A stretch of 60,717 nt of DNA from a virus (lineage: Duplodnaviria; Caudoviricetes). The translations under genes and the position numbers were made by a program. The stretch lies in the IMG/VR virus record IMGVR_UViG_3300036798_000105, positions 1-60,717 of that record, one strand, 5' to 3'. The notes under the pieces are model-generated. The model did no database searches. It was not told the DNA's origin and was given only the letters and a program-made list of their open reading frames with translations. Shown piece after piece: positions 5,815-53,755 of the stretch. The number at the start of each line of letters is the position of its first letter. Position 1 is the first letter of the stretch.

Positions 5815-5818
5815 GGGC

Positions 5819-5847: not shown

Positions 5848-5880
5848 CCCGCGTAGAGACGTAAACCTGGAGGGCGTGAT

Positions 5881-6531: not shown

Positions 6532-6569
6532 TAGGCACTACGCTCCGCCGTGGTGCGGGAAGGCTTCAA

Positions 6570-7709: not shown

Positions 7710-7719
7710 CCGTTTTGTG

Positions 7720-7751
7720 CGCGGCTGTCGTCCCCTCCGTCGGCAGCCGCG
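7720..7751 (+). terminator. GC-rich hairpin after the capsid gene
   Basis: CGCGGCTGTCG-N10-CGGCAGCCGCG with no long U-tract. Confidence 0.5.
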
Positions 7752-7786
7752 TACTTGTAGATAACAACAGAAGACAAGGGAGAGTA

Positions 7787-8593: not shown

Positions 8594-8608
8594 CAGGAAG
8601 GATGTAAG

Positions 8609-9256: not shown

Positions 9257-9268
9257 GGAGGTGTAGTC

Positions 9269-9622: not shown

Positions 9623-9951
9623 CTGATGTCAGGATTGATTCGAATAGTCGTGGAATCGGGCAGATGCTCAATTCAGAGGATATGCGTGTCGCTATGGAGG
9701 TATTCGCGAACGAAATCAAGTTGCGAGCGGAAATCATAGCGCCGGTTGATATGAAGAGTAAGCATCCTGGCCGGTATAAGGCTAGCTTCCATGTGAGGTC
9801 TCATCTTCACGGAGGCGCGACGAATGACCGCGCCGAGGCGGTTGTGTACAATGATGCGCCGGAGGCGTTCTACGTAGAGTTCGCTCACTGGGGCCGGGAG
9901 CCTGAGCATATACTTGTCCGCGCGGCATTTATCCCGCTGAAGGGGGCGTAG
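9619..9951 (+). CDS. Neck protein (HK97 gp10-like)
   Basis: APV...GRYKASF and A.YVEF motifs; synteny. Confidence 0.7.
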   Translation: MTDVRIDSNSRGIGQMLNSEDMRVAMEVFANEIKLRAEIIAPVDMKSKHPGRYKASFHVRSHLHGGATNDRAEAVVYNDAPEAFYVEFAHWGREPEHILVRAAFIPLKGA

Positions 9952-9956
9952 GGCTG

Positions 9957-10346
9957 ATGACATACCCAGTCTTCCCCGATCCCGAGACAATGCTGATGTA
10001 CGCACTCGTTCCGCAGAATCCGAACATCCGTTTCGTCACCGTCATGCCGTACGGAGATCCGGCAAAGATCACGGCTCGTATCCGGCGTACCGGCGGCATA
10101 GTTGTTCATGTTGGTCTTGACCGCCCAGTTATTGATATTGATGTGTTCGGCCCTAAGTCCCAGATTGGCAATGTCTCTGCCGCTGCGAGAGAAATCCAGT
10201 CACAGATGATGTCGCTAATGAGCGCCATCGTACCGAATGGAGTGTTTCAGCGCGTTACTACCGTAAGCAGTCCCCGTCAACTCCCGGAGGTTAACCCAAA
10301 TCTAGTGCGGTATTCCGCAACGTATGAACTCAGCGTACACCCGTAG
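9957..10346 (+). CDS. Tail terminator
   Basis: RRTGG, IDIDVF and RYSATY motifs; directly before the major tail gene. Confidence 0.75.
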   Translation: MTYPVFPDPETMLMYALVPQNPNIRFVTVMPYGDPAKITARIRRTGGIVVHVGLDRPVIDIDVFGPKSQIGNVSAAAREIQSQMMSLMSAIVPNGVFQRVTTVSSPRQLPEVNPNLVRYSATYELSVHP

Positions 10347-23134: not shown

Positions 23135-23741
23135 CAGGCAAGAACTGTGGGACATGGAGCTGGAGCAGCTCTACCTCGAACGGGAGACTACCGAGCCAGA
23201 TCCCGAGATGTGGCGCTGGAGTCCGCTGGAGCTAGCGGAATTCGACCGAATGCTTTCCGTGGCAACGCATCTGCTTGCGCCGCTCAGCTCGATTCGCTTC
23301 GGAGAAGCTGGCTGTGGGATAGGCACAAAGCTATACCTCGCGGTCAACTACCATGGCCTTGAGTCAGTCGGGTGGGAGATTTCGGATGACTACCTCGCAA
23401 AGGCTCTCGTGCTAGGAGTCGACGCGCGGTACATGGACCTGCGTAAGGACTCGCCGCCATGGGCCGAGTTCGACATCGTCTATACCGCGCGACCATTCAA
23501 GGATGATGATGTCGAGATCGCCTGGGAGAGATCAGTCTGGGAGGCCATGAAGCCGGGCGCTGTCATAATGATGGCGTACACGGCGGCTAAGCCATACACC
23601 TGGCCGTGCTACTATCGGGCGCCATTCCGCGGTGTCTGGATGAAGCCTGCCGCTCCGGCGATCCCGGTCTATGACGCCATGATCAGGCGGCAGGAGCCGT
23701 ATGACCCCCTCGTGCCCGCTCCGGGGCCGGGCGGCCGGTAG
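23121..23741 (+). CDS. Class I SAM-dependent methyltransferase
   Basis: Motif I EAGCGIG, G.EI, FDIVY, MKPGAV. Confidence 0.8.
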   Translation: MSVLSRQELWDMELEQLYLERETTEPDPEMWRWSPLELAEFDRMLSVATHLLAPLSSIRFGEAGCGIGTKLYLAVNYHGLESVGWEISDDYLAKALVLGVDARYMDLRKDSPPWAEFDIVYTARPFKDDDVEIAWERSVWEAMKPGAVIMMAYTAAKPYTWPCYYRAPFRGVWMKPAAPAIPVYDAMIRRQEPYDPLVPAPGPGGR

Positions 23742-23911
23742 GCGGCCGGATCGGACCCCCGACGCGCCGCGCGGCTACCGGCCTACGGCTAACGGAAGCG
23801 GGTCCGATCCGGCTAGGATACGTCCTAGGGCTAACGCCCGTCCTAGGTACCGTCTCGGGACGGCTAGAGCTATTCGACGTAGAGCTATGAATCGGTAGCT
23901 TAGCGTAGTAA

Positions 23912-26427: not shown

Positions 26428-26606
26428 TACTCTACCGTTCCGTGAAACATCTTGAAGAACCAGTCGTTCTCGTTGTCCTTGATGAATGTGATATCCCACA
26501 TCCAGTCGTGATCAAAGAGCTCACTGTCACGACCGTCTTGTACGATTGGGAAGCCGCATGCCGCGCAACGTCCGACGATACGGCTTATGTATATGTCAAC
26601 TACCAT
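26427..26606 (-). CDS. 59-aa hypothetical protein (CAAC)
   Basis: Read manually; stop overlaps the DnaE start. Confidence 0.55.
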   Translation of the reverse strand: MVVDIYISRIVGRCAACGFPIVQDGRDSELFDHDWMWDITFIKDNENDWFFKMFHGTVE

Positions 26607-26811: not shown

Positions 26812-27756
26812 TTAACTCCAGGGTTTCCAGTCTGCGTCGGATATCGGGTATTCTAGCCGGGCGGCTTTTGGCAAAGTCACATTACACTGCTCGGCGATGT
26901 ACTCGGCGTTCAGGATCGCCTCCCAGGCGGCGTTACGCGATAGGCCAGTCTTCATGAGGCGCTCGCCTAGGGCCTTATCGGACTCCGGGAACGTCATTGG
27001 TACGTCGTAATTCCAGCTTCGCATCGCATCATCGATCGACTGGTTCTTGCGGTGTACCGCGTGGAGGATGGCCTGCATGTTCGAGTCTTCCGGGCGCGGG
27101 TAATGAACATCGCACGTCGCTACGAGCGGTACACCCGTTTCATTACTGAGTCGTTCATACGCAGGGTTGATTCGACATGTCTTATCAAGTTCGTAGAAGG
27201 GCTGGACTTCGAGAAAGTAATGGTCCCCAAATAGCCGGTGAAAACGGTCGATGACGCGTCGAGCGTCATCCCAGGCATAGCCGTCTCTTGTCGTGGGATT
27301 CGGGATGCCCTTGCCTCCAACAAGAGCGCACGCGAGCATGCTTCCAGTACACCCAGAAAGAGCGAACAGATTTCCTGAATTACTTTGGAGATTCCCTCCA
27401 GAAACTGTTGGATGGTAGTGGTGATCGCGCCAAGACTGGGTGATGAGCTGACAGAGGTTTCGGTATCCATTTGCGTTCTCCGCGAGGATTGTGAGGTGGT
27501 ACTTCCATTGACTGCGGGTTTCGTCGGTTGGCCCGGTATATGCTTCGAGTCCGAAGACCGGCTTAACGCCTGCCTTCAAGGCTGCCTTTTCGAACTGGAA
27601 GTGGCTTGATGAACCGCCGTGCTCAGTCAGCGCCTGCGCGGTATAGCCTAGTTCGGCTGCGCGCTCGACATGTTTTGCCGGTAGCTTGTGGCCATCGCCA
27701 TGACTGAAGGTTGAGTGGTGTAAGTGATGAAGGGATACGTAACGCATCTTCTTCAT
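26812..27756 (-). CDS. dnaE: DnaE N-terminal PHP-domain half
   Basis: H.HSTFS..DG, ALTEHG, GLEAY, LSGC, TCDVHY. Confidence 0.92.
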   Translation of the reverse strand: MKKMRYVSLHHLHHSTFSHGDGHKLPAKHVERAAELGYTAQALTEHGGSSSHFQFEKAALKAGVKPVFGLEAYTGPTDETRSQWKYHLTILAENANGYRNLCQLITQSWRDHHYHPTVSGGNLQSNSGNLFALSGCTGSMLACALVGGKGIPNPTTRDGYAWDDARRVIDRFHRLFGDHYFLEVQPFYELDKTCRINPAYERLSNETGVPLVATCDVHYPRPEDSNMQAILHAVHRKNQSIDDAMRSWNYDVPMTFPESDKALGERLMKTGLSRNAAWEAILNAEYIAEQCNVTLPKAARLEYPISDADWKPWS

Positions 27757-28710: not shown

Positions 28711-28957
28711 CGTTCCTCTTTCTGTGCTGTATCCGCGCGTGGTTCTTGAGTATCTGTTCCAGGGTCCATATTCCCTGTAGTTCTATTGTCTTCGGGAGGT
28801 TACATTCGCGGCACCGAATGAGAACGGTCGTAATTTCGACCTGTCTGAGTTGTGGATGGTACACTACGTTTTTCGGGAGCCATACGTCTAGGATGTCCCA
28901 GATATGAACATGTTCAGGGACTTTCGGCGCGGCTTCTATTTGCGGCTCGGTCATCAC
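28697..28957 (-). CDS. Hypothetical protein (HxH, CxxC)
   Basis: Coupled ORF. Confidence 0.5.
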   Translation of the reverse strand: MMTEPQIEAAPKVPEHVHIWDILDVWLPKNVVYHPQLRQVEITTVLIRCRECNLPKTIELQGIWTLEQILKNHARIQHRKRNDELQ

Positions 28958-29925
28958 ATCATCGGCTTCCGCGCAGCGTTATGATGCAACGGTTCGACAG
29001 GATCGATGTCGGTCCATGTGTCCGGGGCATCGCCCGCCGCCGAGTGAGCGTTAACCCGGTCGCGAATTACGCACCAGCGATCGGCCGGGCCGTTAAAGCC
29101 GCAGTGCCCGGTCTGGTAGCACACAGGCTTGAACAAGCGGGCGATCTCGCGTTGCTGCCAGCTTTCCTCCGGCGGGCCGTAAGTCATGATTGCCCTGATG
29201 AACTGGTCCCACACATGCTTCCACTCAGCCTGAGCTTGCGAGCACAGTCGCATGCCTGCCTGGTTGACCAGGTTCCGCAGGTCGGTGTGGTAGTGGATGC
29301 GCGTCGTGATGTCTGTCGGCAGGAGTCCGCGCGCCTCCTCGGCGGGCATGCCGGAGCCGATGAGGTGGAGGTATGCCTGCGCGGTATGTGAGACGCATTC
29401 GTCCCAGACGTTCCGCTGCCACTCCTGGGTAGAGTCTTCCGCGCCGGGAGTCTGCCCACCTTCTGTGTTCGCCAAGGATGGTGGGATCGGCACCTCGAAT
29501 GCTGCGTTCTCCTTGACGGCGAACCGCATCGACTCCTGAACGAACACGGCCGTACGCTGTCGTACGAGCTGATGCGTGAATGCCCGCGTCACGCCACTGA
29601 TGAAGAAGTGGAGGTTGATGAACTCAAGCGGAGCACTGATCTTACTTGACTTGAATCCATCCAGCCACTTCAGGGCCTGATCGTGCGAGATGTACCTCGG
29701 GTCGTCGTAGATACCTCCCTGGTATAGTTCGCTCGCCGCAGCCATTACCCGGAGCGGGTTAGCCGTCATCGAGACCAAGGTGACCTTGGGACGTACCGGC
29801 TCGCCGCCGTATGTGATCGGCCTAGCCGCGTACATGGCCTCATCCGCCCACTTGACCGGTAGGCTTCGGTTCTCTGGCGGCATGTAGTCCTGCTCCTTCT
29901 CTTCGTGACTTGTCCACTCGCTCAT
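28954..29925 (-). CDS. thyX: ThyX-like FAD-dependent thymidylate synthase (variant motif RQRx7S)
   Basis: PLEF, GVTRAFTHQLVRQR...QESMR, EEARGLLP, RLCSQAQ.EW. Confidence 0.85.
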   Translation of the reverse strand: MSEWTSHEEKEQDYMPPENRSLPVKWADEAMYAARPITYGGEPVRPKVTLVSMTANPLRVMAAASELYQGGIYDDPRYISHDQALKWLDGFKSSKISAPLEFINLHFFISGVTRAFTHQLVRQRTAVFVQESMRFAVKENAAFEVPIPPSLANTEGGQTPGAEDSTQEWQRNVWDECVSHTAQAYLHLIGSGMPAEEARGLLPTDITTRIHYHTDLRNLVNQAGMRLCSQAQAEWKHVWDQFIRAIMTYGPPEESWQQREIARLFKPVCYQTGHCGFNGPADRWCVIRDRVNAHSAAGDAPDTWTDIDPVEPLHHNAARKPMM

Positions 29926-31021: not shown

Positions 31022-31687
31022 GCCCGTCTTTTCCTTCCAGGCGGCTACATGGAACCGCAGGAATTCCCTGAATGCGTTCAGGCTATGAACACGAATCAGG
31101 CCATCCCTGTTGACGCCCACGGAATTGTACGGCTGTGCCATGAGGTAGGTATTCTGAATGCCTGCTTCGCGTGCTTCGTGAAGTTGCTCTGTCAGGTCAT
31201 CTATGGCGGCTATGATCCGGCCGAGTCCTACTTGCTGTACCAGTTCGTGGTACTTGCCATGACCGTCAGGATCATCCCACAGGATCGCATCGAAACCAAT
31301 GTGGTTCCGGTTGAGCCATTCTTGCGTGTCTTCATCGATGTTGTCGAGACGGTTGTACGGACGAGTGGTACAGATCCAGATCTCTACATCCTGGTTCCTG
31401 AGCCATGTAGTCAAGTCGCTCGCGCCGGGGTATACCGGCATCGTCCGCTTCATGCCGCCTTGTCGGTAAGCTAGCTTGATCTTGCGATAGATGGAGTGAT
31501 CGATGCCCATGAATTCCGACAGCCGCCGTCCGGGATTGATCGAGCTTGGATTCGGCATCTTGCGACCTAGCCATCCCTCGGCAAATTTAAGGAAGTGCAC
31601 GTGATAGTCGCCCAATGTTCCGTCGATGTCGAGAGCCACAACACCGCGCAGAGCGCCGTTCCTGAAGATCTGTGGATTAGTCATCAT
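31019..31687 (-). CDS. HAD-family phosphatase (5'-nucleotidase-like)
   Basis: DIDGT, TTRP, IDD motifs. Confidence 0.85.
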   Translation of the reverse strand: MMTNPQIFRNGALRGVVALDIDGTLGDYHVHFLKFAEGWLGRKMPNPSSINPGRRLSEFMGIDHSIYRKIKLAYRQGGMKRTMPVYPGASDLTTWLRNQDVEIWICTTRPYNRLDNIDEDTQEWLNRNHIGFDAILWDDPDGHGKYHELVQQVGLGRIIAAIDDLTEQLHEAREAGIQNTYLMAQPYNSVGVNRDGLIRVHSLNAFREFLRFHVAAWKEKTG

Positions 31688-32450
31688 TCAGAATCCTCAT
31701 CACGTCCGGGTACGTCTTGTGAACTAGGTAGCTCTTGAGCCATTTGCCGTACCGACCGATCCGGTAGATGTGAGCGTGACAATTACAGTTAGTGGTAAGC
31801 GGCTTGATGACCCTGGCCGTCGTCTCGCCGTTTGGTTGTGGAAGTGACCACTCGGTAGTCCGGTACCCGAATACGCAGGCATTACGGTACCATGCGTGCG
31901 CTTCCGTGCCGTCGCATATAATTGTGTCTTCGGCTTCAAGACCCTGGTTCGTGCTACCTACGGCATAGATTGTGTGGTATACGAACTCGTGCTCCTTGCG
32001 GTAACATAGTGCTCGCGCGGGTATGGTCGAGATGATCTTCTCCGGGCCGAACCGGTATATGTCCGAGACTGCTCCGCTGGTGATTGCCGGAATCTTGACG
32101 AACCGGACTTTCTTGATTTCATGAAGGCGCTTCCACATGGCCGTATATGTCGCGCGGATATCCCATGCGTCATGTTCCCCCACGAAATCCTCTGGCGATA
32201 CCTTCCCGTTCCAATTGCTTCCGTAAACCTTGAGCCGGTACTGTTCCGGTGTGCCGACTAGCCAGTATCCAACTCGCGTGTGATCTACCCATTCGTAGCC
32301 GGGAACTGGAGCATGAAGGTACTGGCAGCCGTATATTTGGCTTGGGGAATTTGAGCTGCTCATTATTACTACATAGTGGCCGAGACTGACGGCAGCTTCC
32401 GCCGCCGCCAGTCCGGTAGGGCCACAGCCAAGGATGGCTATAGTGCCCAC
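31677..32450 (-). CDS. FAD/NAD-dependent oxidoreductase
   Basis: GCGPTGLAAA, G.QYLH, ISTIP, IGRYGKW. Confidence 0.8.
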   Translation of the reverse strand: MGTIAILGCGPTGLAAAEAAVSLGHYVVIMSSSNSPSQIYGCQYLHAPVPGYEWVDHTRVGYWLVGTPEQYRLKVYGSNWNGKVSPEDFVGEHDAWDIRATYTAMWKRLHEIKKVRFVKIPAITSGAVSDIYRFGPEKIISTIPARALCYRKEHEFVYHTIYAVGSTNQGLEAEDTIICDGTEAHAWYRNACVFGYRTTEWSLPQPNGETTARVIKPLTTNCNCHAHIYRIGRYGKWLKSYLVHKTYPDVMRILNDD

Positions 32451-32824
32451 TAAAGAATCCTGCCTCCGTGTTGGTACGGTCGGGTGTGGCCGTACTTAAT
32501 GACTCGTTCAAGTTCATAGATGATATCGATGCCCCAGATATCAGCCATGTCTAGGATTCGGATAAGCACGTCGGCTAGCTCCGGGCCTACCCCGACCGGC
32601 TTGTTGTCTATGGTGTCTGACCATAGCTTGTCCCGGTAGGCGTCTAGGGCTTCCGACAGTTCCGACTGAGCCAGAGCGATGTACGCCGCGAACCATGGGC
32701 CGGTACGTGGAGGTAGTGTGTCGCCGCCGAACTTCTCGCGCCATCCCTTTTCCACATTCAGGTTGCGGATGACCAGGGTGAGGTACGGGATGTTATTGAG
32801 CGGCCCCTGCTCCAGGTCGCCCAT
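32450..32824 (-). CDS. MazG-like nucleotide pyrophosphohydrolase
   Basis: SELSEALDA...ELADVLIRILD. Confidence 0.85.
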   Translation of the reverse strand: MGDLEQGPLNNIPYLTLVIRNLNVEKGWREKFGGDTLPPRTGPWFAAYIALAQSELSEALDAYRDKLWSDTIDNKPVGVGPELADVLIRILDMADIWGIDIIYELERVIKYGHTRPYQHGGRIL

Positions 32825-33633
32825 CAGAACGGCGGGTCATCACTGGAGCCGCGAGCGCGACCGCGCCCACGGGCCGGGGCGGCAGACTTCGTGGTGGCGG
32901 CCGTTCGCGCGCCTCGGGTGCCACGGGCCGGAGCGGGCTTCTCCGGCTCTTTCGAGGCGGAACGGGTAGCCGTACGCGCGCCGCGCGCCGGAGTCTTCTC
33001 CGTAGCCGTACGGGCCGCGCGAGCGGGTTGCCTTCCGCGCGTCCTAGCCGGTTCCGGCTCCGGTTCTGGTTCTTCCTCCTCATCTTCCGGCTCATCCTCC
33101 TCAACGTCATCCACTGGCTCATCCTCGTCATCATCGAATGGGAGCCATTCCTTGATGGCAGGCTTCCACTCGCCGTTGTAGCGCTCTCGGTCGGTGACGA
33201 CTCGGGACCATGCCTCATCGTTCTCCTGGCCGGGGCGGAAGCTGCCGACCTTGACGATAGGCGCGCCGTTCTGATCGTCCTTGTCCTCGACTTCGGTGTT
33301 GTTCTTCACCTGCCTCAGCGTGAAGCCGTAGTTCTCCATGAACGGTGCCCACCTGAACTTGGCGCCGCCGATCAGGGCGTAGTTCAGCCAGAACGGGCAG
33401 CCGTTGAACTCTTCGTAGTCGTCGGTGTTCTCGTCAGCGACCCAAAGGATCTTGAGCATCGGGTCGTTGTTCTGCGTGCGGGTCCACCACATCTTCTTGA
33501 CGTAGCCGGACAGCTCGATGTCCTTGGGAGGGACTTCCCCATCGTAGCTGTCGAACGTTTCGGTGGAGTACTCAAGGGCATCCAGTTCATCGATGTCCAG
33601 GTCGGCGGTGTCTTCCTTGCGGAGCTTAACCAT
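32824..33633 (-). CDS. Single-stranded DNA-binding protein (putative)
   Basis: YDG..PP N-terminus, acidic then basic linker, C-terminal DDPPF. Confidence 0.7.
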   Translation of the reverse strand: MVKLRKEDTADLDIDELDALEYSTETFDSYDGEVPPKDIELSGYVKKMWWTRTQNNDPMLKILWVADENTDDYEEFNGCPFWLNYALIGGAKFRWAPFMENYGFTLRQVKNNTEVEDKDDQNGAPIVKVGSFRPGQENDEAWSRVVTDRERYNGEWKPAIKEWLPFDDDEDEPVDDVEEDEPEDEEEEPEPEPEPARTRGRQPARAARTATEKTPARGARTATRSASKEPEKPAPARGTRGARTAATTKSAAPARGRGRARGSSDDPPF

Positions 33634-36207: not shown

Positions 36208-36645
36208 CTAGTAGGGGGCTTCCGCTGCCGCCTTGGAGGCGTTGGACGGACGCCCGCGACCACGCTTGACGGGCGCGGCGGCCGGAGCCGGGGTTGCCGG
36301 AGCGGTAGCGGCGGCCTTGCGGGGACGACCACGGGCAGGCCTGGCCGGCTCGGGCTCAGGCTCTGGTTCCGGCGCGGCGCGCTCGGACTTGCGGGCTTCG
36401 CGCTGAGAGATGTTGAATTCGGACTTCTGGAAGTGCGGGTACAGGGCCGAGCCGAGCGACAGGAGCTTGTCCACGGGGACATCCTCCAGGGCCGCGACGT
36501 TGTCTTCGAACCAGACAACGTAGTCGGACATCGTCGGGGACAGATCCTTGTCGAGGTACCGCTGGAAGTCGACCTGGCCATTCTCTTCGGGGTCAGGCTC
36601 TGGCGGCGCGACTACGGCCGCCCTGCGCCCTCGTGCTGCTGGCAT
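36208..36645 (-). CDS. 145-aa protein of the M..[FY]..W.E...FQ.S..N family (in-frame extension to 36939 possible)
   Basis: SD AGGAGG before ATG 36645; core aligns with 48769-49224 and 52038-52412. Confidence 0.75.
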   Translation of the reverse strand: MPAARGRRAAVVAPPEPDPEENGQVDFQRYLDKDLSPTMSDYVVWFEDNVAALEDVPVDKLLSLGSALYPHFQKSEFNISQREARKSERAAPEPEPEPEPARPARGRPRKAAATAPATPAPAAAPVKRGRGRPSNASKAAAEAPY

Positions 36646-36690
36646 AGGGGAATCCCTCCTGGGGTGAGGCATTTTCGCGTTACCCTTCCG

Positions 36691-36719
36691 AGTATACTCC
36701 GGCCCGGAGCGGATGGCTA
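36691..36719 (-). promoter_or_regulatory. Predicted promoter TAGCCA-N17-TATACT
   Basis: Same architecture as the other phage promoters. Confidence 0.65.
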
Positions 36720-37097
36720 CCCCCTTTCGCGATGAACTTTCGGTATGATCCGAAAGCTCGAAACGGCCGGGCGCGATGTAACGGAGGGTAATGAAGCCAT
36801 CCGAATTCGGAACCTTCCATTCCTTTGATGGTTTCCTGACATCGTCGGCCGTATACTTCATGACGAACCGCGCCATGTCGATAGTAAAGCCGTAGCCGGA
36901 AACGAGCGCTTCCATGATGACGGCAATATTCCGGGCCACGGGATTTCCTTATTTGCCTAGAAAGTTATTCACGATGGGCGGATATATTACCGCCAGAAGC
37001 AGGAACATCAGGCATAGCATGATGATGGTCATTGTCATGCCCATAGCGATGTTCCCGACGATGCGCATCCTCTTGTAGTTGGGCTCCACTGTATCTC

Positions 37098-39862: not shown

Positions 39863-40089
39863 TAGTAGTCGCCAGCTTCATGGTAACCGTGACTAGGCTC
39901 TTCAGGTGGTGAATTCTTACTCTCCTGCTTGTAATGCGTGTTGACGTTGTAGTTGCCCTGTTCGACTAGTTCTCGCGCGGTATTGAGGATCTCCAGGATG
40001 CCTTCTTTGCCCTTGACGGGGCCTCGAACGTCAATTATCATCTTGCCTATGTCGGACACCGTCACCAGCATCAAGATGCTTCTAGCCAT
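39862..40089 (-). CDS. Hypothetical protein
   Basis: Coupled ORF with SD GGAG. Confidence 0.55.
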   Translation of the reverse strand: MARSILMLVTVSDIGKMIIDVRGPVKGKEGILEILNTARELVEQGNYNVNTHYKQESKNSPPEEPSHGYHEAGDY

Positions 40090-40918
40090 TATTGTCTCCA
40101 GGTATTTCTAGGGATCGGATGTCGCCGCCGTGTATGGCCGAGGCAACTTTCCAGTTGGGGATGTAGTCGTTCAGTAGTTTCCGCCATGATACCCGTAGCG
40201 GCTTGTCTGGAGCATTCGTGTAGCTCGGCCATCTCTTGTGGATGATGTCTAGGCATTCCTTCTCGGCAGCGGTTCGTGCCTCTATGGTGCTGTACTTCGC
40301 GGCGAATCCTCCCGGGCTGTACCGCTTAGCTACCGACACCGCCTTGACGTCGCAGTGAGCGAGCCATGGAATTCCACGCTTGATACCTTGCCTGGCTAGT
40401 TCGGTATCCTCCCCGATCGTGTGAAGCTTAGTGTCGAAGTTCCCACAGTCGAGCGCTGTCTGGACGTTAAGTCCGAACACCTGAAACCCCCAGCCGCCAG
40501 GACACAGGATGGCACCATGGTTTCTGGAGATGGCTCCGCCGGTGAACATGTCATGGATGGATCGTGTAGCGCCGATGCCAAGTACTCCTGGCTTCTCGGC
40601 TTCCTCAAGCAGGAGGCTCGCGTTTGAGTTGGAGTGAATGTGGATGTCGTCATCGCTCATGATGATCGAGATGAGTGCCGTTTTCTTGGCATGCTGAACA
40701 CAGAAGTTCCGGGCGTACCCGATGCCGCGCGCGGACAGAGGCAGCGGGAGGATGTAGACATTCTTGCCCCAATTCTCCTCACGCTTGAGCTTGCCGTGGA
40801 TGCTGAATTCCATGCGGTCAACCACGAGCCGTACCTGAATGCCCTGGTCGATCCAGTTGGGTACGGTCTTGCGGAGCATGTCGATGCGGCTCATGGTTGG
40901 GATGTAAACTACATCCAT
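40082..40918 (-). CDS. GT-A fold glycosyltransferase (resembles phage DNA-modifying TAGT/GREB1-like enzymes)
   Basis: VYIPT..R, GIGYARNF, SDDDI (DxD), GED.EL, PGG motifs. Confidence 0.75.
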   Translation of the reverse strand: MDVVYIPTMSRIDMLRKTVPNWIDQGIQVRLVVDRMEFSIHGKLKREENWGKNVYILPLPLSARGIGYARNFCVQHAKKTALISIIMSDDDIHIHSNSNASLLLEEAEKPGVLGIGATRSIHDMFTGGAISRNHGAILCPGGWGFQVFGLNVQTALDCGNFDTKLHTIGEDTELARQGIKRGIPWLAHCDVKAVSVAKRYSPGGFAAKYSTIEARTAAEKECLDIIHKRWPSYTNAPDKPLRVSWRKLLNDYIPNWKVASAIHGGDIRSLEIPGDNNG

Positions 40919-48768: not shown

Positions 48769-49224
48769 CTAGGGGTTCAGGTCTGAGGACTGGAATGCAC
48801 CGTATGCCTTGGAGGCAATCATCACCAGCCGCGCGTCGACACCCTTGGGGAACAGATCTGCGTACTCGCGCTCGATCCACTGCGTGAAGCGGACCATGGC
48901 CGGCGTGATCTCCTTGGTGGCGTAGCTGCGGTGTCCGGTGACGCGCGGCTCCTTGGCCGGCTTTGGCTCTGGCTTCTTCTGCTTTGCCAGTTCCCGCGCC
49001 AGCGCTTCCGACTGCTCCTTGATGGCCGCCGCCTTCGCGGCCCTGGTCTGGGCAGCCTTCTGAGCAGGCGTCAGGATCTCAGGCGCTGGCGCCTTTGCGA
49101 CCGGCTTGGTTGTCGTCACCAGCTCGGGACCGGAACGGCCGGACGGTCCCTGGTTTGACTCGGCATTCTTGCTCGGACGCCGGTTGCGACGAGTCGGAAT
49201 CTTCTCGGCTTGGGTGGTAGACAT
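48769..49224 (-). CDS. 151-aa Lys/Ala-rich protein, paralog of 52038-52412
   Basis: AMVRFTQWIERE...VDARLVMIASKAYGAFQSSDLN; SD AGAAAGG. Confidence 0.8.
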   Translation of the reverse strand: MSTTQAEKIPTRRNRRPSKNAESNQGPSGRSGPELVTTTKPVAKAPAPEILTPAQKAAQTRAAKAAAIKEQSEALARELAKQKKPEPKPAKEPRVTGHRSYATKEITPAMVRFTQWIEREYADLFPKGVDARLVMIASKAYGAFQSSDLNP

Positions 49225-49295: not shown

Positions 49296-51112
49296 GTCCT
49301 CATTTTCCGGGCGCAGGCGCACGAAGTTGATGTTGACCTCATACAGGCCGGTGACGCTCTGGATGAAGTACCAGCCATCCTCCAGGAAATTCCTGTCGGG
49401 TGCGTTGGGTGACGGGGCACCAATCGTGTCATACACGGTGCCGTCGATGTCGAAGATGTCCTCGACACTGAACTTGACCTTGGTGCCTATCGGGTATGGA
49501 TGTTGTATGGTCATACTGCTCCTAATGCGGCATATGGGTGATGGTCTTGCCGACTTCCCCGTTGAGCTGGCCCATCTGGATCGCATCCACGAACTCGGTG
49601 TACTCGCCGTACAGATCTGGTTGTGGCACGCTGTTGATCAGCATCGTGCCTGTGCCGTCATCGACACCCAGGACGAACGCGCCTGGCCCATGAATCCGCG
49701 CGACGAGTACGGTGCTGTCGCTGATTACGGTGAGCTTGACTGCCTCGTACAGCGCCCAGTTGATGTCTGCCTCGTTCATCTTCGCCTCTCAGGACATCTT
49801 GACGACTAGGGTACACGGCTGGCTGACGTAGCTGACATCCTCGAACCAGCCATCCATGCCGTTTGTTGACGCCCAGCTTGTCGCCGAGTGAAGGTTCGCG
49901 AACCGAATCCGCGCGGACCCGACATCCTTGGTCAGCAGCTCACCGTGGTACGCCCTGAGGATGACCTGGGAAAGCTTCTGGTCCATCGTCAGCTCGAATT
50001 CGTCAGACATTCGCTTCTCCGTTCCTCCGGCCGCGCGTTCGCGGCCTTACGTCCGTAGCCTACCCGATCGCGCGCGAATCTCCTAATCGTGGTCAGGGTG
50101 GATTGGCCTGCGGACGATGACGTCAAAGTGGTCAGGCCATGAGAATGTCCGGTCACGGGCAACCTGGAAGCTGATCTCCTTTCCTGGCATTGGAGTGCCG
50201 CTCTTGCTGCCTTTGCGTGGCCTGACGACCCAACCATGTTTGCTCTCGATGGTGCGCACGGCACTGTTGACGATCAGGCCGCGCATGTTCATCTGCTTTG
50301 GCACCTTGATGACAAAGTCGCCAACGCGCAGATCCTGGATTGCGATGGTTTCCTCCGGGCCGAAATGGATTGTCGGGATTGGATCGTAGCTGCCTGGTGT
50401 GGGTGCTGATTCCCGCATGTTTCTCCCTAGAATGGTGGTGTGTTCTCGCTGGCGAGGATGGTGATGAAGCGCTCGACATTACACAGGTGATTCACGGCGT
50501 TGACGGCGAACTTGAAGTCTTTGGTCCGGCAGGATCTTGGCTGGCTCACCCAGATGTCGTCAAGGGCGAGGTACACGATATCGCCAATGTAGTTGGCCAT
50601 GTCGTGAGCACCACCACGGTAGATCTCATAGCGAGTGGCATCTGTATGGCGGCCAGGCTTGATCTTCACGGCGATGTAGTTCACGGGCAATGATGCCTTG
50701 AGGACACTGAAGTTGCTGACGCCGAAACCTCTGATAGACATGTTGTCCTTTCGTGGAAGTGGGAAGTGGTAGTGGTAGGATCTCCTCAATGGACCCTCCT
50801 TGCAGCGGAGGGTTACCCTCCTTACACCACTGACTGTGAAGTGGTCAGCTCAAGGCCATAGCCATTCTTGTCAGTCCAGTCGAACACGTAGTTCAGTCGT
50901 GCGGTACGATCGTGGAGTCGTACCCACTTGCCGTAGAACTTCTGCTTGTACTCATCGCGGTCGGCCGCGTCGTTGAAGATGACGAAGATGGTGGGCATGC
51001 CGTGAGCGTCAATCCACTTCCGGCAGAGGTTGTAGTTGACGTTGACGATGCTGCCTACGACGGCCGCGAAGTCGATGACTTCTGGGGTTTTCGTTGGTCC
51101 TGTGACGTACAT
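49293..51112 (-). other. Run of small leftward early genes (49293-49514, 49522-49779, 49789-50010, 50083-50418, 50427-50741, 50822-51112)
   Basis: ORFs with SD sites, separated by CA/TG-free promoter islands. Confidence 0.6.
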
Positions 51113-51384
51113 TTCGTGTCTCTCTTTCCTCTACGCTCCGGCGTTCCGGCGCTACGTACGGAGTCTATACGACGGAATCGGCGATAGCGAATCGCTTGTT
51201 TTCGCTGGTCAACACATTTTGGTGGTGTCGGTGGCTGGCTGGCTGGCCGGGACAACATACACACACATTTCGCGGGAATTTTTCAAAATCATGTGCGCGG
51301 GATGAACGCCCATCGGCTGGGGTCGACCCCACTGGGGTCAATTGAGGTCGAATGTAGTCGACTACATTTTTTAGGCCCTGGTTG

Positions 51385-51500
51385 AACTCAAAAATTATTT
51401 CTGACATTTTAGTCAAACTCGAAAATTTTTCCTGACATTTTAGGCAAACTCCAAACTTATTTTCGACACTATAATCAAACTCAAAAATTATTTTGACGCC
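51385..51500. repeat. AT-rich 31-bp tandem repeat (about 3.7 copies)
   Basis: AACTC starts at 51385, 51416, 51447 and 51478; unit is about AACTCAAAAATTATTTCTGACATTTTAGTCA. Confidence 0.85.
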
Positions 51501-51902
51501 GCTAGGCGACGGGACACAATTTTTCAATCTACTGTAGTCGACTACCTCAGACGCCCATCGGTCGTACCCCAATGTTTTCGCCTCCTCCCGTTTGTAGTCG
51601 ACTACCTTTTCCCTACGCCGGTAGAACGCGATCCGGCGCGCCGGAAATTCCCGGAAAATCCGGCGGATTTTCGGAATATTCCGCTCGCCGCGCGAAGCGG
51701 AGGAGCGCTCCGAATTTCGTTCGGAAGCGGAGGAGCGCTCCGAAATTCCCGATTTTCCGCGCGGATTTTCGGGAATTTTCTCCGGGGATTTTCCGTTCGC
51801 GCGCGCGCCGCGCGGTAAGTAGGAGTCGCGCGTAAGCGGAGGCCGCCTCCGAAATTCCCGGAAAAAAGAGATCTACGTCTCGTCGGAAAACCGCCTAGAA
51901 AT

Positions 51903-51931
51903 TTTCTTTTTCGCGATCCGGCGGGTACGCT
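51903..51931 (+). promoter_or_regulatory. Predicted promoter TTTCTT-N17-TACGCT for the CA/TG-free gene
   Basis: GGG-TAnnnT architecture shared with the other islands. Confidence 0.5.
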
Positions 51932-52037
51932 TACGTACGTAAGGCCGGAACGAAAGAACCGGCCGAACCTCCGGCCGAACGCGCCGGAGTAGCGCGGAGC
52001 TAGCTCCGCTTTCTAACTAAAGAAAAAGGCGATTAAA

Positions 52038-52412
52038 ATCGACGCTAACGTTATTCCCGCCGCCGTAATTCCCGCCGCCGCCGCCGTAAAGGTCGCGTCG
52101 CCGGAAAAGACCGCGCCGGTTAAGACGGTAACTCGGAAGCCTAGCGCGAAGCGGCCTACGGCCGCCGAAATCGAGCTAGCGGCTCTTAAGGAGAAGCTAG
52201 CGGCGACGGAAGCGGAGCTAGCCGCTAGCGCGGCGCGTAAGCCTAGCGGGTATAAGCTCGCTAGCGTAGCTCCGCGCGCGATGACGGAATTCGCGACCTG
52301 GATTGAGCGCGAGTTCCCGGAGTTCGGAAAGGTCGACGCGCGTCTCGTTACGGTCGCGAGTAAGGCCTACCGCTATTTCCAATCGTCGGACCTTAATTCG
52401 TATTCGGGTTAA
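52038..52412 (+). CDS. Unannotated 124-aa protein with probable ATC start
   Basis: Open frame after TAA 52014; SD AAAGG 8 nt before ATC; C-terminus AMTEFATWIERE...VDARLVTVASKAYRYFQSSDLN matches 48769-49224. Confidence 0.85.
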   Translation: MDANVIPAAVIPAAAAVKVASPEKTAPVKTVTRKPSAKRPTAAEIELAALKEKLAATEAELAASAARKPSGYKLASVAPRAMTEFATWIEREFPEFGKVDARLVTVASKAYRYFQSSDLNSYSG

Positions 52413-52432
52413 TTCCTCTAGAATTCGAATTT

Positions 52433-52460
52433 CCGCCCGGAGTAATTCCGGGCGGTTATT
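52433..52460 (+). terminator. Hairpin terminator-like element
   Basis: CCGCCCGGA-GTAAT-TCCGGGCGG followed by TTATT. Confidence 0.6.
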
Positions 52461-52508
52461 CGGACTCTAGGAACCAAATAAATTCCCATTCAATCATAAG
52501 GATTTCCA

Positions 52509-52709
52509 ATGAATGATTCAGTCATGTTCCAGTCACTTTCAGGAATATTTCACCGCGTTGCTGTCGAGGACATCCAGGGCGCGATCTGCCATGACGATGA
52601 CTCGATGGTAGTCGTCTACACTGCCGGCGACTGTGACGTGTTCCGCGCGGTCAGCTGTGTGCCTGCCTACCGCGCAGAGCTTGAGCTGATTGCCCTGCGC
52701 TCAGCGTAG
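52509..52709 (+). CDS. Hypothetical protein
   Basis: SD TAAGGA before ATG. Confidence 0.55.
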   Translation: MNDSVMFQSLSGIFHRVAVEDIQGAICHDDDSMVVVYTAGDCDVFRAVSCVPAYRAELELIALRSA

Positions 52710-53282
52710 CCTGCCTGCCCCAGCCTGCCCAGTCCTAGTGGCTGGGCAGGCACACACACATATTGCCTGTGCGCCCATCGGTGACCAAAAACTTCAGTGG
52801 TTGGGGGTGGTATTGCCTACCCTCCCGATTGACCCTCCGCCAGCCAAGGAGGGACACTGCCCAGGAACCGCGCGAGCCATAGCATTGGACTGTTGTGGGT
52901 GTCGCCTCGTGCCCTGCCTGGCTGGCTGTGGCTGGGTGCGGCTGCCTGCCTGCCTGGGTGCGCCCATCGGTGGGCACTGCCGCCTACCTGCGCCCATCGG
53001 TGACAGTGCGGAGTCCCTACTGCGGTCGACTAGCTCCCAAATGGCTGTATACTAGGCGGTGTGCGCAGGGTACCCACACAGCACCACCCCCGTGAGACGC
53101 CCATCGGTGGGCTGTGAGGTGGCCATGCTAGCACCCAGCACGCCCATCGGTGGGCAATGGGGTGGGGGAGGACCCCCGACAAGGCTCAGGGGTGAGACCG
53201 TGGCGCACTAGCCGTCGTAAAGCGCGGCCAATTGTGGAACCTTGCCTGTTTGCCATTCCAGCCAATGCCCATGTGTGTGTGG

Positions 53283-53313
53283 AAAAGCCCGGCAGGCAAG
53301 TCGCCTACCGGGC
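53283..53313 (-). terminator. Intrinsic terminator
   Basis: Minus strand GCCCGGTAGGC-GACTT-GCCTGCCGGGC-TTTT just after the stop at 53330. Confidence 0.7.
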
Positions 53314-53329
53314 CATGGTTGTTGGGCTG

Positions 53330-53755
53330 TTACTGCTTCAGGTCTACCTTGACCAGCATACCCCCTACCTTCACGGGGCCGACGTTGACGGGGACCGGGC
53401 CGACACAACCGAGTCCGTTGGGGGCGATCCCGGCGGGGTCACTTCCGGCGTGGGTCGGCTCGACAGTAGCGCACAGCGTCACCGTGCCGTCGCCGTTGTT
53501 GGTCCAGGTCTTGCTAGTGAACTTGAGCTGTTCGAGGACGCCTGGGGCGATGAAGAACGTACATGCGCCTCCCTGACTCGTTGCGGTGCCGTCAGACAGT
53601 AGGCCGCCTCCGGTCCAGCATCCCTGGCCGTTTGCCGCGACGACGAACGAGCCTACTACAGATGCTCCTGAATCGGCAAGAGCGGTGCCGGAGAACCCGG
53701 CTACCGCCAATGCCGCCGCCGATATGGCGACTGCTGCGGATTTCCTTATAGACAT
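53330..53755 (-). CDS. Secreted protein with Sec signal peptide
   Basis: MSIRK-hydrophobic-TALA/D; four Cys; SD GAAAGGG. Confidence 0.7.
   Translation of the reverse strand: MSIRKSAAVAISAAALAVAGFSGTALADSGASVVGSFVVAANGQGCWTGGGLLSDGTATSQGGACTFFIAPGVLEQLKFTSKTWTNNGDGTVTLCATVEPTHAGSDPAGIAPNGLGCVGPVPVNVGPVKVGGMLVKVDLKQ

What the first reader, a model, noticed from the sequence alone, without database searches (positions are those of the whole stretch)
51595..52474. About 690 bp with no CA or TG dinucleotide: candidate modification-free 'boot sector'
Seen: reading base by base, I find no CA and no TG from 51595 to 52281, and only four more up to 52474. A naive equal-frequency expectation is about 1 per 8 bp. 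All four bases remain common and the flanks use CA/TG freely. CA and TG are the same double-stranded step. Inference: that step is chemically or physically occupied in this phage's DNA, most simply by a bulky phage-made modification, and this block must stay unmodified so host RNA polymerase can use it first. Alternative: it is the first-entering DNA and avoids a host defence that recognises CA/TG.
Basis: partly seen in the sequence, partly recalled or inferred. Interest (0 to 1): 0.95.

Follow-up and report, generated by a model that had tools for sequence, protein, structure and literature searches.

The report
Phage gene cassette purged of CA/TG
An uncultured soil phage keeps one 880-base stretch, holding a small gene and its control DNA, almost completely free of the DNA step CA/TG, even giving up a normal start codon, most likely so that this stretch escapes a chemical mark or other factor that acts at CA/TG elsewhere on its chromosome.

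Summary
There is no CA or TG from 51595 to 52281 (a 689-bp gap; the next longest in the window is 175 bp), and only 4 occur in 51595-52474 against about 107 expected.

The block is a leader plus a 124-aa gene (52038-52412) and its terminator hairpin. The gene is rewritten to avoid CA/TG: 4 observed against about 36 expected, and 3 of those 4 are unavoidable Met, Trp or Gln codons. It has no NTG start. An ATC aligns with the GTG start of an ortholog. A normally written paralog lies at 48769-49224.

Two diverged related phages keep a purged block at the same locus, and a third keeps one beside the same GTAGTCGACTAC palindromes. Their leader sequences have diverged heavily, so selection maintains the purge. 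In this lineage about 15 promoter-plus-leader islands are also purged.

The cause is not shown. The best reading (0.45) is a zone kept free of a TG-context thymidine hypermodification. The phage has a TET-associated-type glycosyltransferase and nucleotide-pool genes, and TG-context marks are published for other phages.

Against this: no dioxygenase or kinase was found, and the TG-modified phage F8 shows no such islands.

This scan has flagged similar CA/TG-purged cassettes before, in at least 13 other genomes.

The parts
51595..52474 (+). CA/TG-purged block: 4 CA/TG steps in 880 bp against about 107 expected
51595..51922 (.). Upstream non-coding part of the block. It has zero CA/TG and internal direct and inverted repeats (35-nt unit x3, GCGGATTTTCGG x4). 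Its sequence has diverged between relatives but is always CA/TG-free.
51923..51931 (+). GGGTACGCT, a putative -10 region (TAnnnT preceded by GGG). It resembles the -10 of the other islands and the sequence upstream of the paralog gene (GCGGGTAAGCTACGTACGTAAG). Assigned by eye; there are no TSS data.
51932..52037 (+). Putative 5' leader with hairpins and a purine-rich ribosome-binding stretch AAAGAAAAAGG. Window 51930-52045 folds at -43.1 kcal/mol, z = -2.9.
52038..52412 (+). Gene for a 124-aa protein: Ala/Lys/Pro-rich N-terminal region, a predicted helix, and a conserved C-terminal two-helix domain (...AMTEFATWIEREFPEFGKVDARLVTVASKAYRYFQSSDLN...). Probable ATC start. The only CA/TG steps are ATG (Met), TGG (Trp), CAA (Gln) and one ATT|GAG codon junction.
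52418..52470 (+). 24-nt inverted repeat (83% complementary, 5-nt loop) directly after the stop codon, a likely terminator. The block ends here.
51594..51605 (.). Third copy of the perfect palindrome GTAGTCGACTAC. The block starts here. The other copies are at 51354-51365 and 51534-51545. The same palindrome precedes or adjoins the purged block in all relatives.
51385..51508 (.). Four tandem 31-bp AT-rich repeats between the palindromes. They lie outside the purged block and contain CA/TG.
51552..53151 (+). Six exact copies of CGCCCATCGGT, all on the + strand, flanking the block (51552, 52772, 52961, 52991, 53098, 53141), plus a one-mismatch copy at 51307. There are none elsewhere in the window.
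48769..49224 (-). Normally written paralog (151 aa, ATG start, 57 CA/TG steps) of the block gene
36208..36939 (-). Third, distant member of the same protein family (hhalign probability 85%, E 6e-6)
40082..40918 (-). Glycosyltransferase with a TET-associated glycosyltransferase (PF20691) N-terminal match, the candidate enzyme for a DNA sugar mark. Conserved in the relatives that carry the block (74% and 62% identity).
28954..29925 (-). ThyX-like protein (323 aa), a candidate source of a non-canonical pyrimidine nucleotide. It is 28% identical to the ThyX of phage F8.
50008..50090 (-). Example of the roughly 15 short CA/TG-free promoter-plus-leader islands, running from a -35-like GATT(C/A)G box to the ATG. 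Others start at 47765, 48684, 51117, 41519, 39537, 54630, 43482, 45373, 44928, 30961, 5771 and 55450.

Best explanation
The block is a self-contained transcription unit (control DNA, leader, one small gene, terminator) that selection keeps free of the double-stranded step CA/TG, because something acts on that step everywhere else on the phage chromosome.

Most likely mechanism (inferred): the phage carries a context-specific, bulky pyrimidine hypermodification, with a sugar added by its TAGT-type glycosyltransferase to a 5-hydroxymethyl-pyrimidine. Most simply this is thymine followed by G, which would cover 30% of all T. DNA without TG on either strand cannot be marked. The cassette, and in this lineage about 15 promoter-plus-leader islands, therefore stay as plain DNA that the host RNA polymerase and DNA-binding proteins can read whether or not the rest of the genome is marked.

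Shown: the purge, its strand symmetry, the recoding of the gene, its conservation under divergence, and the presence of the glycosyltransferase and nucleotide-pool genes.

Inferred: the existence of the mark, its chemistry, its TG context, and its effect on transcription.
For: 1. Size and specificity. There are 4 CA/TG in 880 bp against about 107 expected. No other step class behaves this way.

2. Recoding of the gene. The observed count is 4, against a mean of 36.4 in 2000 synonymous recodings at this genome's codon usage (minimum 22). The paralog has 57. M+W+Q+H+C make up 2.4% of the protein, against 10.8% in 10 long genes.

3. Start codon. There is no NTG before Met at 52281, although homology to the paralog and to full-length relatives begins well upstream. 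The ATC at 52038 aligns with the GTG start of the L004 ortholog.

4. Conservation.
- L003/G1: 3 CA/TG against 104.5 expected.
- L004/G2 (= L018): 4 against 121.5.
- L033: 9 against 99.6.
- The window and L003 leaders differ by 94 mismatches plus 101 gap columns, and 33% of single substitutions would create CA/TG.

5. DNA-level reading. CA and TG are both at zero, and about 330 bp upstream of the putative -10 is purged as well.

6. Genome-wide pattern. There are 21 gaps of 60 bp or more against 2.4 expected, and 12 of 80 bp or more against 0.16. G1 has 18 against 2.7. Of the 19 islands printed, 13 end on an ATG or GTG.

7. Controls. Poushou and Terapin show no excess.

8. Candidate enzymes.
- TAGT-family glycosyltransferase: 38.1 bits against a cut-off of 27.5. 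It is present in G1 and G2.
- Also present: ThyX-like, SDR and HAD/NT5C-like proteins, and MazG-like and N-hydrolase-like sequences (by eye).

9. Literature.
- Thymidine hypermodification is installed 'in sequence-specific contexts' (PMC8989533 and PMC5889632, passages).
- Pbunavirus F8 and 14-1 carry a sugar-type hypermodified T 'in a TG motif' replacing about a quarter of T (PMC12191111, passages).
- Restriction-resistant sites in M6, ViI and phiW-14 are enriched for TG/TC (PMC6449724, passages).
- The phage thymine dioxygenase 5mYOX176 prefers NTG, and glycosyltransferases are the commonest neighbours (PMC13229309, sections 8 and 12).
- Bulky major-groove groups block promoter use by bacterial RNA polymerase (PMC11550810, introduction passage).
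Against: 1. There are no data on the actual bases of this phage's DNA.
2. No TET/JBP domain was found in any frame (PF12851, E up to 10). Pfam scans of 46 ORFs found no 5-hmU kinase, amino-acid:DNA transferase or DNA methyltransferase.
3. Positive control failed. F8, with a demonstrated TG-motif mark, has no purged islands: 5 gaps of 60 bp or more against 3.6 expected, maximum gap 88 bp.
4. In G2, ordinary intergenic regions have normal CA/TG density, so the supposed mark cannot be a general bar to promoter use.
5. TGCA, which would be marked on both strands, is the most avoided tetranucleotide (30 against 186). That is unexpected if the mark protected such sites.
6. The restriction-palindrome test does not discriminate. 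The window gives p = 0.009 and F8 gives 0.007, but the control Poushou gives 0.006.
7. According to the literature passage seen, modification outside the promoter had minimal effect on transcription (T7 RNA polymerase, PMC11550810). This leaves the purge of the coding part unexplained.
8. The 18-kb L033 fragment shows no glycosyltransferase. It is only a fragment, so this is weak evidence.
Confidence: 0.45

Rival explanations
1. Target-free zone for a CA/TG-reading nuclease or silencing factor, with no modification needed. A host defence, or the phage's own host-shut-off factor, damages or blocks DNA at CA/TG steps during the first minutes of infection. The one cassette that must work at that time has lost all targets. 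The rest of the genome is needed only later, or is protected in another way.
For: The same sequence facts apply as for the main reading: a strand-symmetric, selected, cassette-wide purge that includes the coding part. A per-site cost that applies along the whole transcription unit fits cleavage or a roadblock better than promoter masking does. The purge of the big block is conserved even where ordinary promoters are not purged (G2). F8 shows that a TG mark alone does not produce islands. The block lies in the arm upstream of terS in both the window (7.6 kb) and L033 (about 3 kb). From recall, that arm is the last-packaged, first-ejected end in lambda-like siphophages.
Against: No nuclease or defence with a 2-bp specificity is known to me. 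No candidate was identified here. Physical ends and entry order are unknown. T5's first-step-transfer DNA, the textbook first-entering segment, shows no CA/TG depletion (O/E 0.94). The remaining 98% of the genome has normal CA/TG density (O/E 1.05) and would have to be protected somehow, which brings back a modification.
Confidence: 0.2
2. Protein-binding platform. The block and its palindrome array form an origin, packaging or partition-like site. Its DNA must stay free of the mark, or mechanically stiff because it lacks the flexible CA/TG step, for a nucleoprotein complex to assemble. The gene merely sits inside it.
For: The block always adjoins arrays of GTAGTCGACTAC palindromes: 3 copies in the window, 12 in L018/G2, and about 20 related units in L033. 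Six same-strand CGCCCATCGGT sites occur only around the block. AT-rich 31-bp tandem repeats lie next to it. PMC5977210 (passage) notes that putrescinyl-thymine is not randomly placed and may matter for packaging.
Against: The purge follows the gene exactly to its terminator and spares only unavoidable codons, which points to the transcription unit as the constrained object. A soft mechanical preference would give depletion, not zero in 689 bp together with loss of the start codon. TA and CG, the other flexible pyrimidine-purine steps, are enriched. Gene orientation relative to the palindromes differs in L033.
Confidence: 0.1
3. RNA- or translation-level constraint. The transcript must contain no NUG start codons, or no UG/CA cleavage sites for a ribonuclease.
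For: A CA/TG-free stretch has no ATG, GTG, TTG or CTG in any of the six frames (direct from the sequence). The short islands end at start codons: 13 of the 19 printed end on ATG or GTG. The leader is structured (z = -2.9).
Against: Avoiding start codons explains the loss of TG on the sense strand only, yet CA is also at zero. About 330 bp upstream of the putative promoter, and the promoter spacers of about 15 islands, are purged although they are probably not transcribed. The gene inside the block is itself translated, and it has lost its own NTG start. I know of no ribonuclease that needs both UG and CA.
Confidence: 0.07
4. Avoidance of a host-made DNA-binding small molecule (an intercalator or alkylator) that prefers the CA/TG step and stalls RNA polymerase.
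For: The host is probably a soil actinobacterium: the run is a soil metagenome and the terminase is closest to those of Corynebacterium phages. DNA-intercalating anti-phage compounds block phage development early (bioRxiv 10.64898/2026.01.13.699316, passages). That some intercalators prefer CpA/TpG steps is my recollection only.
Against: The preprint passages seen give no sequence preference and report no correlation with GC content. CG and TA steps are enriched in the block, a poor design against general pyrimidine-purine intercalators. There is no evidence on the host or its metabolites.
Confidence: 0.05
5. Local mutational bias (for example targeted deamination or error-prone repair) without selection against CA/TG.
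For: The products expected from transitions at CA/TG, namely CG and TA, are enriched (O/E 1.86 and 1.42).
Against: Sharp boundaries are conserved at the palindrome and the terminator. The protein is conserved, with only the unavoidable codons retained. Three diverged lineages have different leader sequences. The genome-wide CA/TG frequency is normal.
Confidence: 0.03

Closest known systems
TG-context thymidine hypermodification in phages: Pbunavirus F8 and 14-1 (PMC12191111, passages); TG/TC motifs in M6, ViI and phiW-14 (PMC6449724, passages)
   Same: It is a phage-made, partial, dinucleotide-context mark on T, of sugar type in F8 and 14-1. About a quarter of T is affected, and here 30% of T precedes G. 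F8 also carries ThyX, MazG-like and PNK-like genes. The window's ThyX-like protein matches F8 ThyX at 28% identity, E 6e-25.
   Different: No modified base has been shown for this phage. F8 has no CA/TG-free islands. No purged cassette is described in the passages I read.
Phage thymine dioxygenases with dinucleotide preference plus glycosyltransferases: 5mYOX176/ParB, NTG-preferring (PMC13229309, sections 8, 12 and 13)
   Same: These act after replication with an NTG preference, about 35% T oxidation in vivo, and glycosyltransferases as the commonest neighbours. The authors propose 'epigenetic-like' selective marking.
   Different: No TET/JBP or ParB domain was found in this window. The hydroxymethyl base, if there is one, may instead come from the ThyX-like enzyme before replication. 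Here the TG preference is inferred only from the purge.
Restriction-site-poor first-entering DNA: T5 first-step-transfer region, T7 early region (recalled from textbooks)
   Same: An early cassette lacks the sequence that a DNA-level factor reads, while the rest of the genome keeps it.
   Different: The avoided word here is a 2-bp step, not a 4-8-bp site. The purge is total and costs the start codon. The block is not at a record end. T5's own FST DNA is not CA/TG-depleted (O/E 0.94).
Vertebrate CpG islands (recalled analogy)
   Same: Promoter-linked islands are defined by one dinucleotide that is the target of a DNA mark.
   Different: CpG islands keep the target and stay unmethylated. These islands delete the target altogether.
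CA/TG-purged cassettes noted earlier by this scan in other phage genomes (e1-6046619, e1-5932430, e1-5966389, e1-6117536, e1-6088722; AI notes)
   Same: These are uncultured phages with a promoter-to-terminator cassette or regulatory islands free of CA/TG. In two cases an ATG start is also given up.
   Different: They are different genomes, with no sequence look-alikes in the scan's index. Those notes are unchecked by me, apart from the two papers they cite and my own tests on F8 and T5.

Membership tests
Phage thymidine hypermodification system (5-hmdU-based, context-specific) | Enzyme that supplies 5-hydroxymethyl-uracil (dUMP hydroxymethylase before replication, or a TET/JBP-type thymine dioxygenase after it) | tested here: inconclusive
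   A ThyX-like protein is present (PF02511, 1.6e-29), but its product is unknown. PF12851 has no match in six frames.
Phage thymidine hypermodification system (5-hmdU-based, context-specific) | Transferase acting on the hydroxymethyl base in DNA | tested here: met
   PF20691 TAGT, 38.1 bits against a cut-off of 27.5, covering residues 4-93 of 278 only. PHROG 842, beta-glucosyl-HMC-alpha-glucosyltransferase, 5.9e-13. This is a family match only; the substrate was not tested.
Phage thymidine hypermodification system (5-hmdU-based, context-specific) | 5-hmU DNA kinase and amino-acid:DNA transferase (the M6/ViI route) | tested here: not met
   No such Pfam or PHROG hit among the ORFs scanned. Small ORFs were not all scanned.
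Phage thymidine hypermodification system (5-hmdU-based, context-specific) | Non-canonical nucleoside in virion DNA, in a TG context | not testable with these tools
   The phage is uncultured. The only run found is stored as contigs.
Phage thymidine hypermodification system (5-hmdU-based, context-specific) | Restriction-type palindromes that contain the marked step escape avoidance | tested here: inconclusive
   In the window all 6 strongly avoided 6-mers lack CA/TG and MWU p = 0.009, but the control phage Poushou also gives p = 0.006. TGCA itself is strongly avoided.
First-step-transfer / leading-end early cassette | Lies at the physical end that enters the cell first | not testable with these tools
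   The ends are unknown. The record break lies between terS (60060-60503) and terL (891-2555). The block is 7.6 kb upstream of terS.
First-step-transfer / leading-end early cassette | The model system shows the same dinucleotide purge | tested here: not met
   T5 1-10219: CA/TG O/E 0.94, longest gap in the first 30 kb is 53 bp.
Small basic protein family of the block gene (no Pfam or PHROG name) | Conserved C-terminal domain ...AM..F..WI.REFPE...D.RLVTIASKAY..FQSSDLN | tested here: met
   BLASTP to the paralog, 4e-15. There are 65 library representatives at E up to 0.001. Invariant columns are listed.
Small basic protein family of the block gene (no Pfam or PHROG name) | The L033 cassette gene belongs to the same family | tested here: inconclusive
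   hhalign E 0.002 but probability only 14%. BLASTP to the third paralog gives 0.55.
Gene with a non-NTG (ATC) start codon | Protein homology extends upstream of the first NTG, with an in-frame near-cognate codon behind a ribosome-binding stretch | tested here: met
   The stop-to-stop frame 52017-52412 has no NTG before codon 89. Homology starts upstream of that. ATC aligns with the GTG of L004. Translation itself was not tested.

The most novel reading that the evidence does not exclude
These phages use a dinucleotide-specific DNA mark as a genome-wide gate on who can read their DNA. They have evolved 'mark-proof' cassettes, written in a restricted alphabet without CA/TG, as the only DNA that is always legible to the host machinery. 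This would be an epigenetic boot sector, whose product (a small basic protein with normally written paralogs) then opens the marked genome. Equally novel is the alternative that the purge is the footprint of an undescribed cellular or phage factor that reads a 2-bp step.
Probability: 0.3. Interest if true: 0.9.

Novelty: new variant of a known kind. Interest (0 to 1): 0.78.

Why it matters
Partial, context-specific DNA hypermodifications are now being found in many phages, but why they are partial and what they do beyond blocking restriction enzymes is an open question. The authors of PMC13229309 raise it themselves.

A cassette that evolution has rewritten to be unmarkable, at the cost of a canonical start codon and of five amino acids, is a natural experiment. 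It shows which DNA must stay unmarked, and it offers a sequence-only way to predict the modification context of uncultured phages.

If the cause is instead a factor that reads CA/TG, that factor would be a new kind of phage-host interaction.

In practice, such cassettes also show that standard gene callers miss or truncate genes. Here a 43-aa call from the internal ATG stands in place of a 124-aa protein.

Tried and rejected
- **Named relatives.** blastn of 50500-53500 against named phages found nothing. tblastn of the glycosyltransferase and of the paralog against named phages found nothing.
- **RNA families.** Rfam on 50800-53600 gave only sub-threshold chance hits.
- **Promoter scan.** The sigma-70 scan found 4 weak sites, none inside the block. 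The promoter inside the block is therefore assigned by likeness to the other islands only.
- **Fold of the block protein.** The model had mean pLDDT 64. Foldseek against PDB gave no match at E up to 0.001. The ESM Atlas and PHROGs gave nothing usable.
- **Sequence searches against PDB.** Searches with four proteins gave nothing significant.
- **Sequencing runs.** Only one soil DNA run was listed, kept as contigs, and no RNA holder was listed. I did not lay it, because contigs cannot show ends, strands or modification.
- **Further relatives.** Viral-contig scans with the helicase-like protein and with P0017 found no relatives. The genome-contig scan with the family alignment found none, so there is no prophage or host clue.
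- **Spacing hypothesis.** I tested whether opposite-strand TG pairs are avoided at a distance. Only TGCA (spacing 0) is avoided. I therefore treat TGCA avoidance as ordinary 4-bp site avoidance and not as part of the purge. L033 has the purge without TGCA avoidance.
- **Palindrome test for a protective mark.** It is not discriminating, because a negative control passes.
- **Positive and comparator controls.** F8 and T5 do not show the pattern.
- **Repeats inside the block.** GGAAA/TTTCC-type repeats arise naturally in any CA/TG-free sequence, so I do not read them as binding sites.
- **Supplements.** Supplementary files were not consulted. Dataset S5 and SI Tables S1/S2 of PMC13229309, and Extended Data Tables 2 and 3 of PMC12191111, hold the primary specificity data that I cite only from the main text.
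- **Literature searches for purged cassettes.** Searches found no paper describing dinucleotide-purged phage cassettes. That is the full extent of my claim that it is not in print.
Full report
**What the window is**

The window is a whole IMG/VR virus record of 60,717 bp, estimated 94% complete. The gene layout is:
- Structural genes lie on the + strand from about 0.9 to 23.7 kb.
- Replication and nucleotide-metabolism genes lie on the - strand from 24.1 to 51.1 kb.
- A mixed arm runs from 51.6 to 60.5 kb and ends with terS (PF25673, 60060-60503).

The large terminase is about 50% identical to those of Corynebacterium phages Poushou and Juicebox. The only sequencing run that holds the stretch is a soil metagenome. 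The phage is therefore an uncultured actinobacteriophage-like virus with no close named relative.

**The observation**

The last CA/TG before the block is at 51593 and the next at 52282, a 689-bp gap. The next longest gap in the window is 175 bp. Up to 52474 there are four more CA/TG steps.

From the block's own base composition, 82 CA/TG are expected in 51595-52281 (P about 2e-36) and 106.5 in 51595-52474. CG, TA and AA/TT are enriched. No other dinucleotide-step class shows a comparable gap. The flanks have normal density on the left and high density on the right.

**Anatomy**

- The block begins at the third copy of a perfect 12-bp palindrome, GTAGTCGACTAC. The copies are at 51354, 51534 and 51594. 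Four 31-bp AT-rich tandem repeats lie between the first two copies.
- About 330 bp of repeat-rich non-coding DNA follow.
- Next is GGGTACGCT at 51923-51931. This resembles the -10 regions of the other islands and the sequence upstream of the paralog.
- Then comes a hairpin-rich leader (z = -2.9) with a purine-rich ribosome-binding stretch.
- An open frame runs from 52017 to 52412, followed by a 24-nt inverted repeat at 52418-52470.
- Six exact copies of CGCCCATCGGT, all on the + strand, occur only around the block.

**The gene**

Standard ORF calling gives only a 43-aa product, starting at the ATG at 52281, because a CA/TG-free stretch cannot contain ATG, GTG, TTG or CTG. Several lines show the real gene is longer:
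- The stop-to-stop frame is 131 codons long.
- Its similarity to a normally written paralog at 48769-49224 (151 aa) starts 10 residues upstream of that Met.
- Full-length relatives share the architecture of a basic low-complexity N-terminus plus a conserved C-terminal domain.
- In the alignment of the three leaders, the in-frame ATC at 52038 lines up with the GTG start codon of the L004 ortholog.

The four CA/TG steps in the gene are the Met, Trp and Gln codons, which cannot be written otherwise, and one ATT|GAG codon junction. L003 writes that junction as ATA|GAG.

Against 2000 synonymous recodings at this genome's codon usage:

| Gene | Observed | Mean | Minimum |
|---|---|---|---|
| Window block gene | 4 | 36.4 | 22 |
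| L003 ortholog | 3 | 36.9 | 22 |
| L004 ortholog | 4 | 32.5 | 20 |
| Window paralog | 57 | 46.2 | 30 |

The protein also uses few of the five amino acids whose codons all contain CA or TG: 2.4% against 10.8% in 10 long genes.

The protein family has 65 representatives in the 1.84-billion-protein library. Several are only 40-45 aa and begin at the conserved Met. They could be truncated calls of the same kind, but I could not fetch their DNA. The family has no Pfam, PHROG, PDB or Atlas assignment.

**Conservation**

- *L003/G1.* Block protein 73% identical, glycosyltransferase 74%. It has a 684-bp gap at the same place and 3 CA/TG in 863 bp, against 104.5 expected.
- *L004/G2.* Block protein 36-42% identical, glycosyltransferase 62%. 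It has 4 CA/TG in 992 bp against 121.5 expected: the GTG start plus the Met, Trp and Gln codons. L018, from another assembly, is the same phage at 99.97% identity.
- *L033.* I found this by searching the viral collection for pairs of the palindrome. It shares terL (72%), portal (68%) and terS (56%) with the window. It has 9 CA/TG in 843 bp against 99.6 expected, next to about 20 TCGACTAC-type repeats. A 133-aa gene inside has 7 CA/TG against 39.5 expected. Whether that gene is a family member is inconclusive.

The window and L003 leaders differ by 94 mismatches and 101 gap columns. One third of all single substitutions in the window's leader would create a CA/TG. Neutral retention therefore has a probability of the order of (2/3)^94.

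Of 13 metagenome loci carrying family members, 12 have normal CA/TG density and only L018 is purged. The purge belongs to the locus, not to the protein family.

**Genome-wide islands**

Following a lead from another first-stage note, I tested the gap distribution:
- The window has 21 gaps of 60 bp or more against 2.4 expected, and 12 of 80 bp or more against 0.16. The other step classes show no excess.
- G1 has 18 against 2.7.
- Apart from the three gaps that belong to the block, most of the gaps are intergenic.
- Read by eye, they run from a -35-like GATT(C/A)G box, 19 bp upstream of a TAnnnT -10 that is often preceded by GGG, through a hairpin and a ribosome-binding stretch.
- Of the 19 islands printed, 13 end on an ATG or GTG.
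- Many other intergenic regions have normal density.
- In G2 only the big block is purged. The block is therefore the conserved core, and the promoter islands are an extension in the window/G1 lineage.
- Controls: Poushou (maximum gap 63 bp) and Terapin (maximum 91 bp) show no excess.

**What acts at CA/TG**

The equal loss of CA and TG, the purge of probably untranscribed DNA, and the purge of promoter spacers all point to a factor that reads double-stranded DNA.

Candidate genes in the phage:
- A glycosyltransferase with a TET-associated glycosyltransferase match above Pfam's cut-off. It is conserved in G1 and G2.
- A long ThyX-like protein, an SDR, and a HAD/5'-nucleotidase-like protein.
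- By eye, MazG-like and deoxyribosyltransferase-like proteins.

That is the kind of gene set seen in phages that replace or decorate a pyrimidine.

The literature I read:
- Thymidine hypermodification is placed in sequence-specific contexts (PMC8989533 and PMC5889632).
- F8 and 14-1 carry sugar-type hypermodified T in a TG motif, on about a quarter of T (PMC12191111).
- TG/TC motifs dominate restriction-resistant sites in M6, ViI and phiW-14 (PMC6449724).
- A phage thymine dioxygenase prefers NTG, and glycosyltransferases are the commonest neighbours of such enzymes (PMC13229309).
- Bulky major-groove groups block promoter use by bacterial RNA polymerase (PMC11550810).

In this genome 30% of T precedes G. 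A TG-context sugar mark, with the block and islands as unmarkable DNA, is therefore the most economical reading.

**Results against that reading**

- I found no TET/JBP domain, no 5-hmU kinase or amino-acid transferase, and no DNA methyltransferase in the scans made.
- F8, the experimentally TG-modified phage, has no purged islands: 5 gaps of 60 bp or more against 3.6 expected, maximum 88 bp.
- T5's first-step-transfer DNA is not depleted (O/E 0.94).
- G2's ordinary promoter regions contain CA/TG.
- TGCA is the most avoided tetranucleotide in the window, G1 and G2 (O/E 0.16, 0.23-0.24 and 0.36-0.38), and also in other contigs with the protein family, but not in L033, Poushou, Terapin or F8. 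Only the adjacent arrangement is avoided. I read this as ordinary site avoidance, but it sits awkwardly with a protective TG mark.
- The test 'palindromes with CA/TG escape avoidance' is positive in the window and in F8, but also in Poushou. It decides nothing.
- The purge of the coding part is not explained by promoter masking alone.

**Verdict**

It defines a complete small transcription unit written without one DNA step, with a probable ATC start.

The cause remains inferred:
- An unmarkable zone in a CA/TG-marked genome: 0.45.
- A target-free zone for an unidentified CA/TG-reading nuclease or silencer: 0.20.
- A protein-binding platform: 0.10.
- RNA/translation-level, small-molecule and mutational explanations: less likely.

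It is right that a DNA-level, probably chemical, factor is the likeliest cause. It is untested on timing, on RNA polymerase and on entry order.

This scan has reported similar purged cassettes in at least 13 other genomes. My literature searches found no published description.

Noticed in passing
whole window; also G1, G2, L019, L020, L022, L025: TGCA is by far the most under-represented tetranucleotide: 30 observed against 186 expected in the window, with O/E 0.10-0.38 in related contigs. It is not avoided in L033, Poushou, Terapin or F8. Only the adjacent TG+CA arrangement is avoided, with no spacing effect.
   Followed up: partly
whole window: Several 6-bp palindromes are almost absent: TCCGGA 0 against 28 expected, CTCGAG 0 against 13, CCGCGG 7 against 43, GGATCC 3 against 16, CCCGGG 5 against 24, GGGCCC 1 against 9. 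This is typical restriction-site avoidance, and much the same set is avoided in G1 and G2.
   Followed up: partly
window 23713-23888 (G1 31492-31716): The second-longest CA/TG-free stretch (175 bp; 224 bp in G1) lies in the convergent junction after the last + strand gene. It has no convincing ORF and may be a terminator region or a non-coding RNA.
   Followed up: partly
window 32922-33029, inside ORF 32824-33633: A 107-bp CA/TG-free stretch lies inside a called ORF whose product ends in an SSB-like acidic tail (…DDPPF). It is conserved in G1 (136 bp) and G2 (66 bp). The ORF may be two genes, or it may hold an internal promoter.
   Followed up: no
window 52710-53160: Directly after the block lies a CA/TG-rich stretch without a convincing gene (86 observed against 51 expected). 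It has short tandem repeats and five of the CGCCCATCGGT sites. L003 has a TTG-rich repeat region at the same place.
   Followed up: partly
L033 6700-7100; L018 3933-4310: Arrays of the GTAGTCGACTAC-type palindrome (about 20 and 12 units) adjoin the purged block in the relatives, against 3 copies in the window. They look like a multi-site protein-binding array of unknown function.
   Followed up: partly
window 24151-26499 and 26812-27756: The phage's DnaE-type polymerase is split into a PHP-domain protein and a separate Pol III alpha core protein. The core is 36% identical to the polymerase of phage F8.
   Followed up: no
window 1-744 / 106-744: The ORF before terL encodes an extremely Ala/Lys/Arg/Gly-rich low-complexity protein with no family match. 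The record break lies between terS and this ORF.
   Followed up: no
proteins P0028, P0029, P0043 (library hits): Family members of only 40-45 aa begin exactly at the conserved Met.
   Followed up: no
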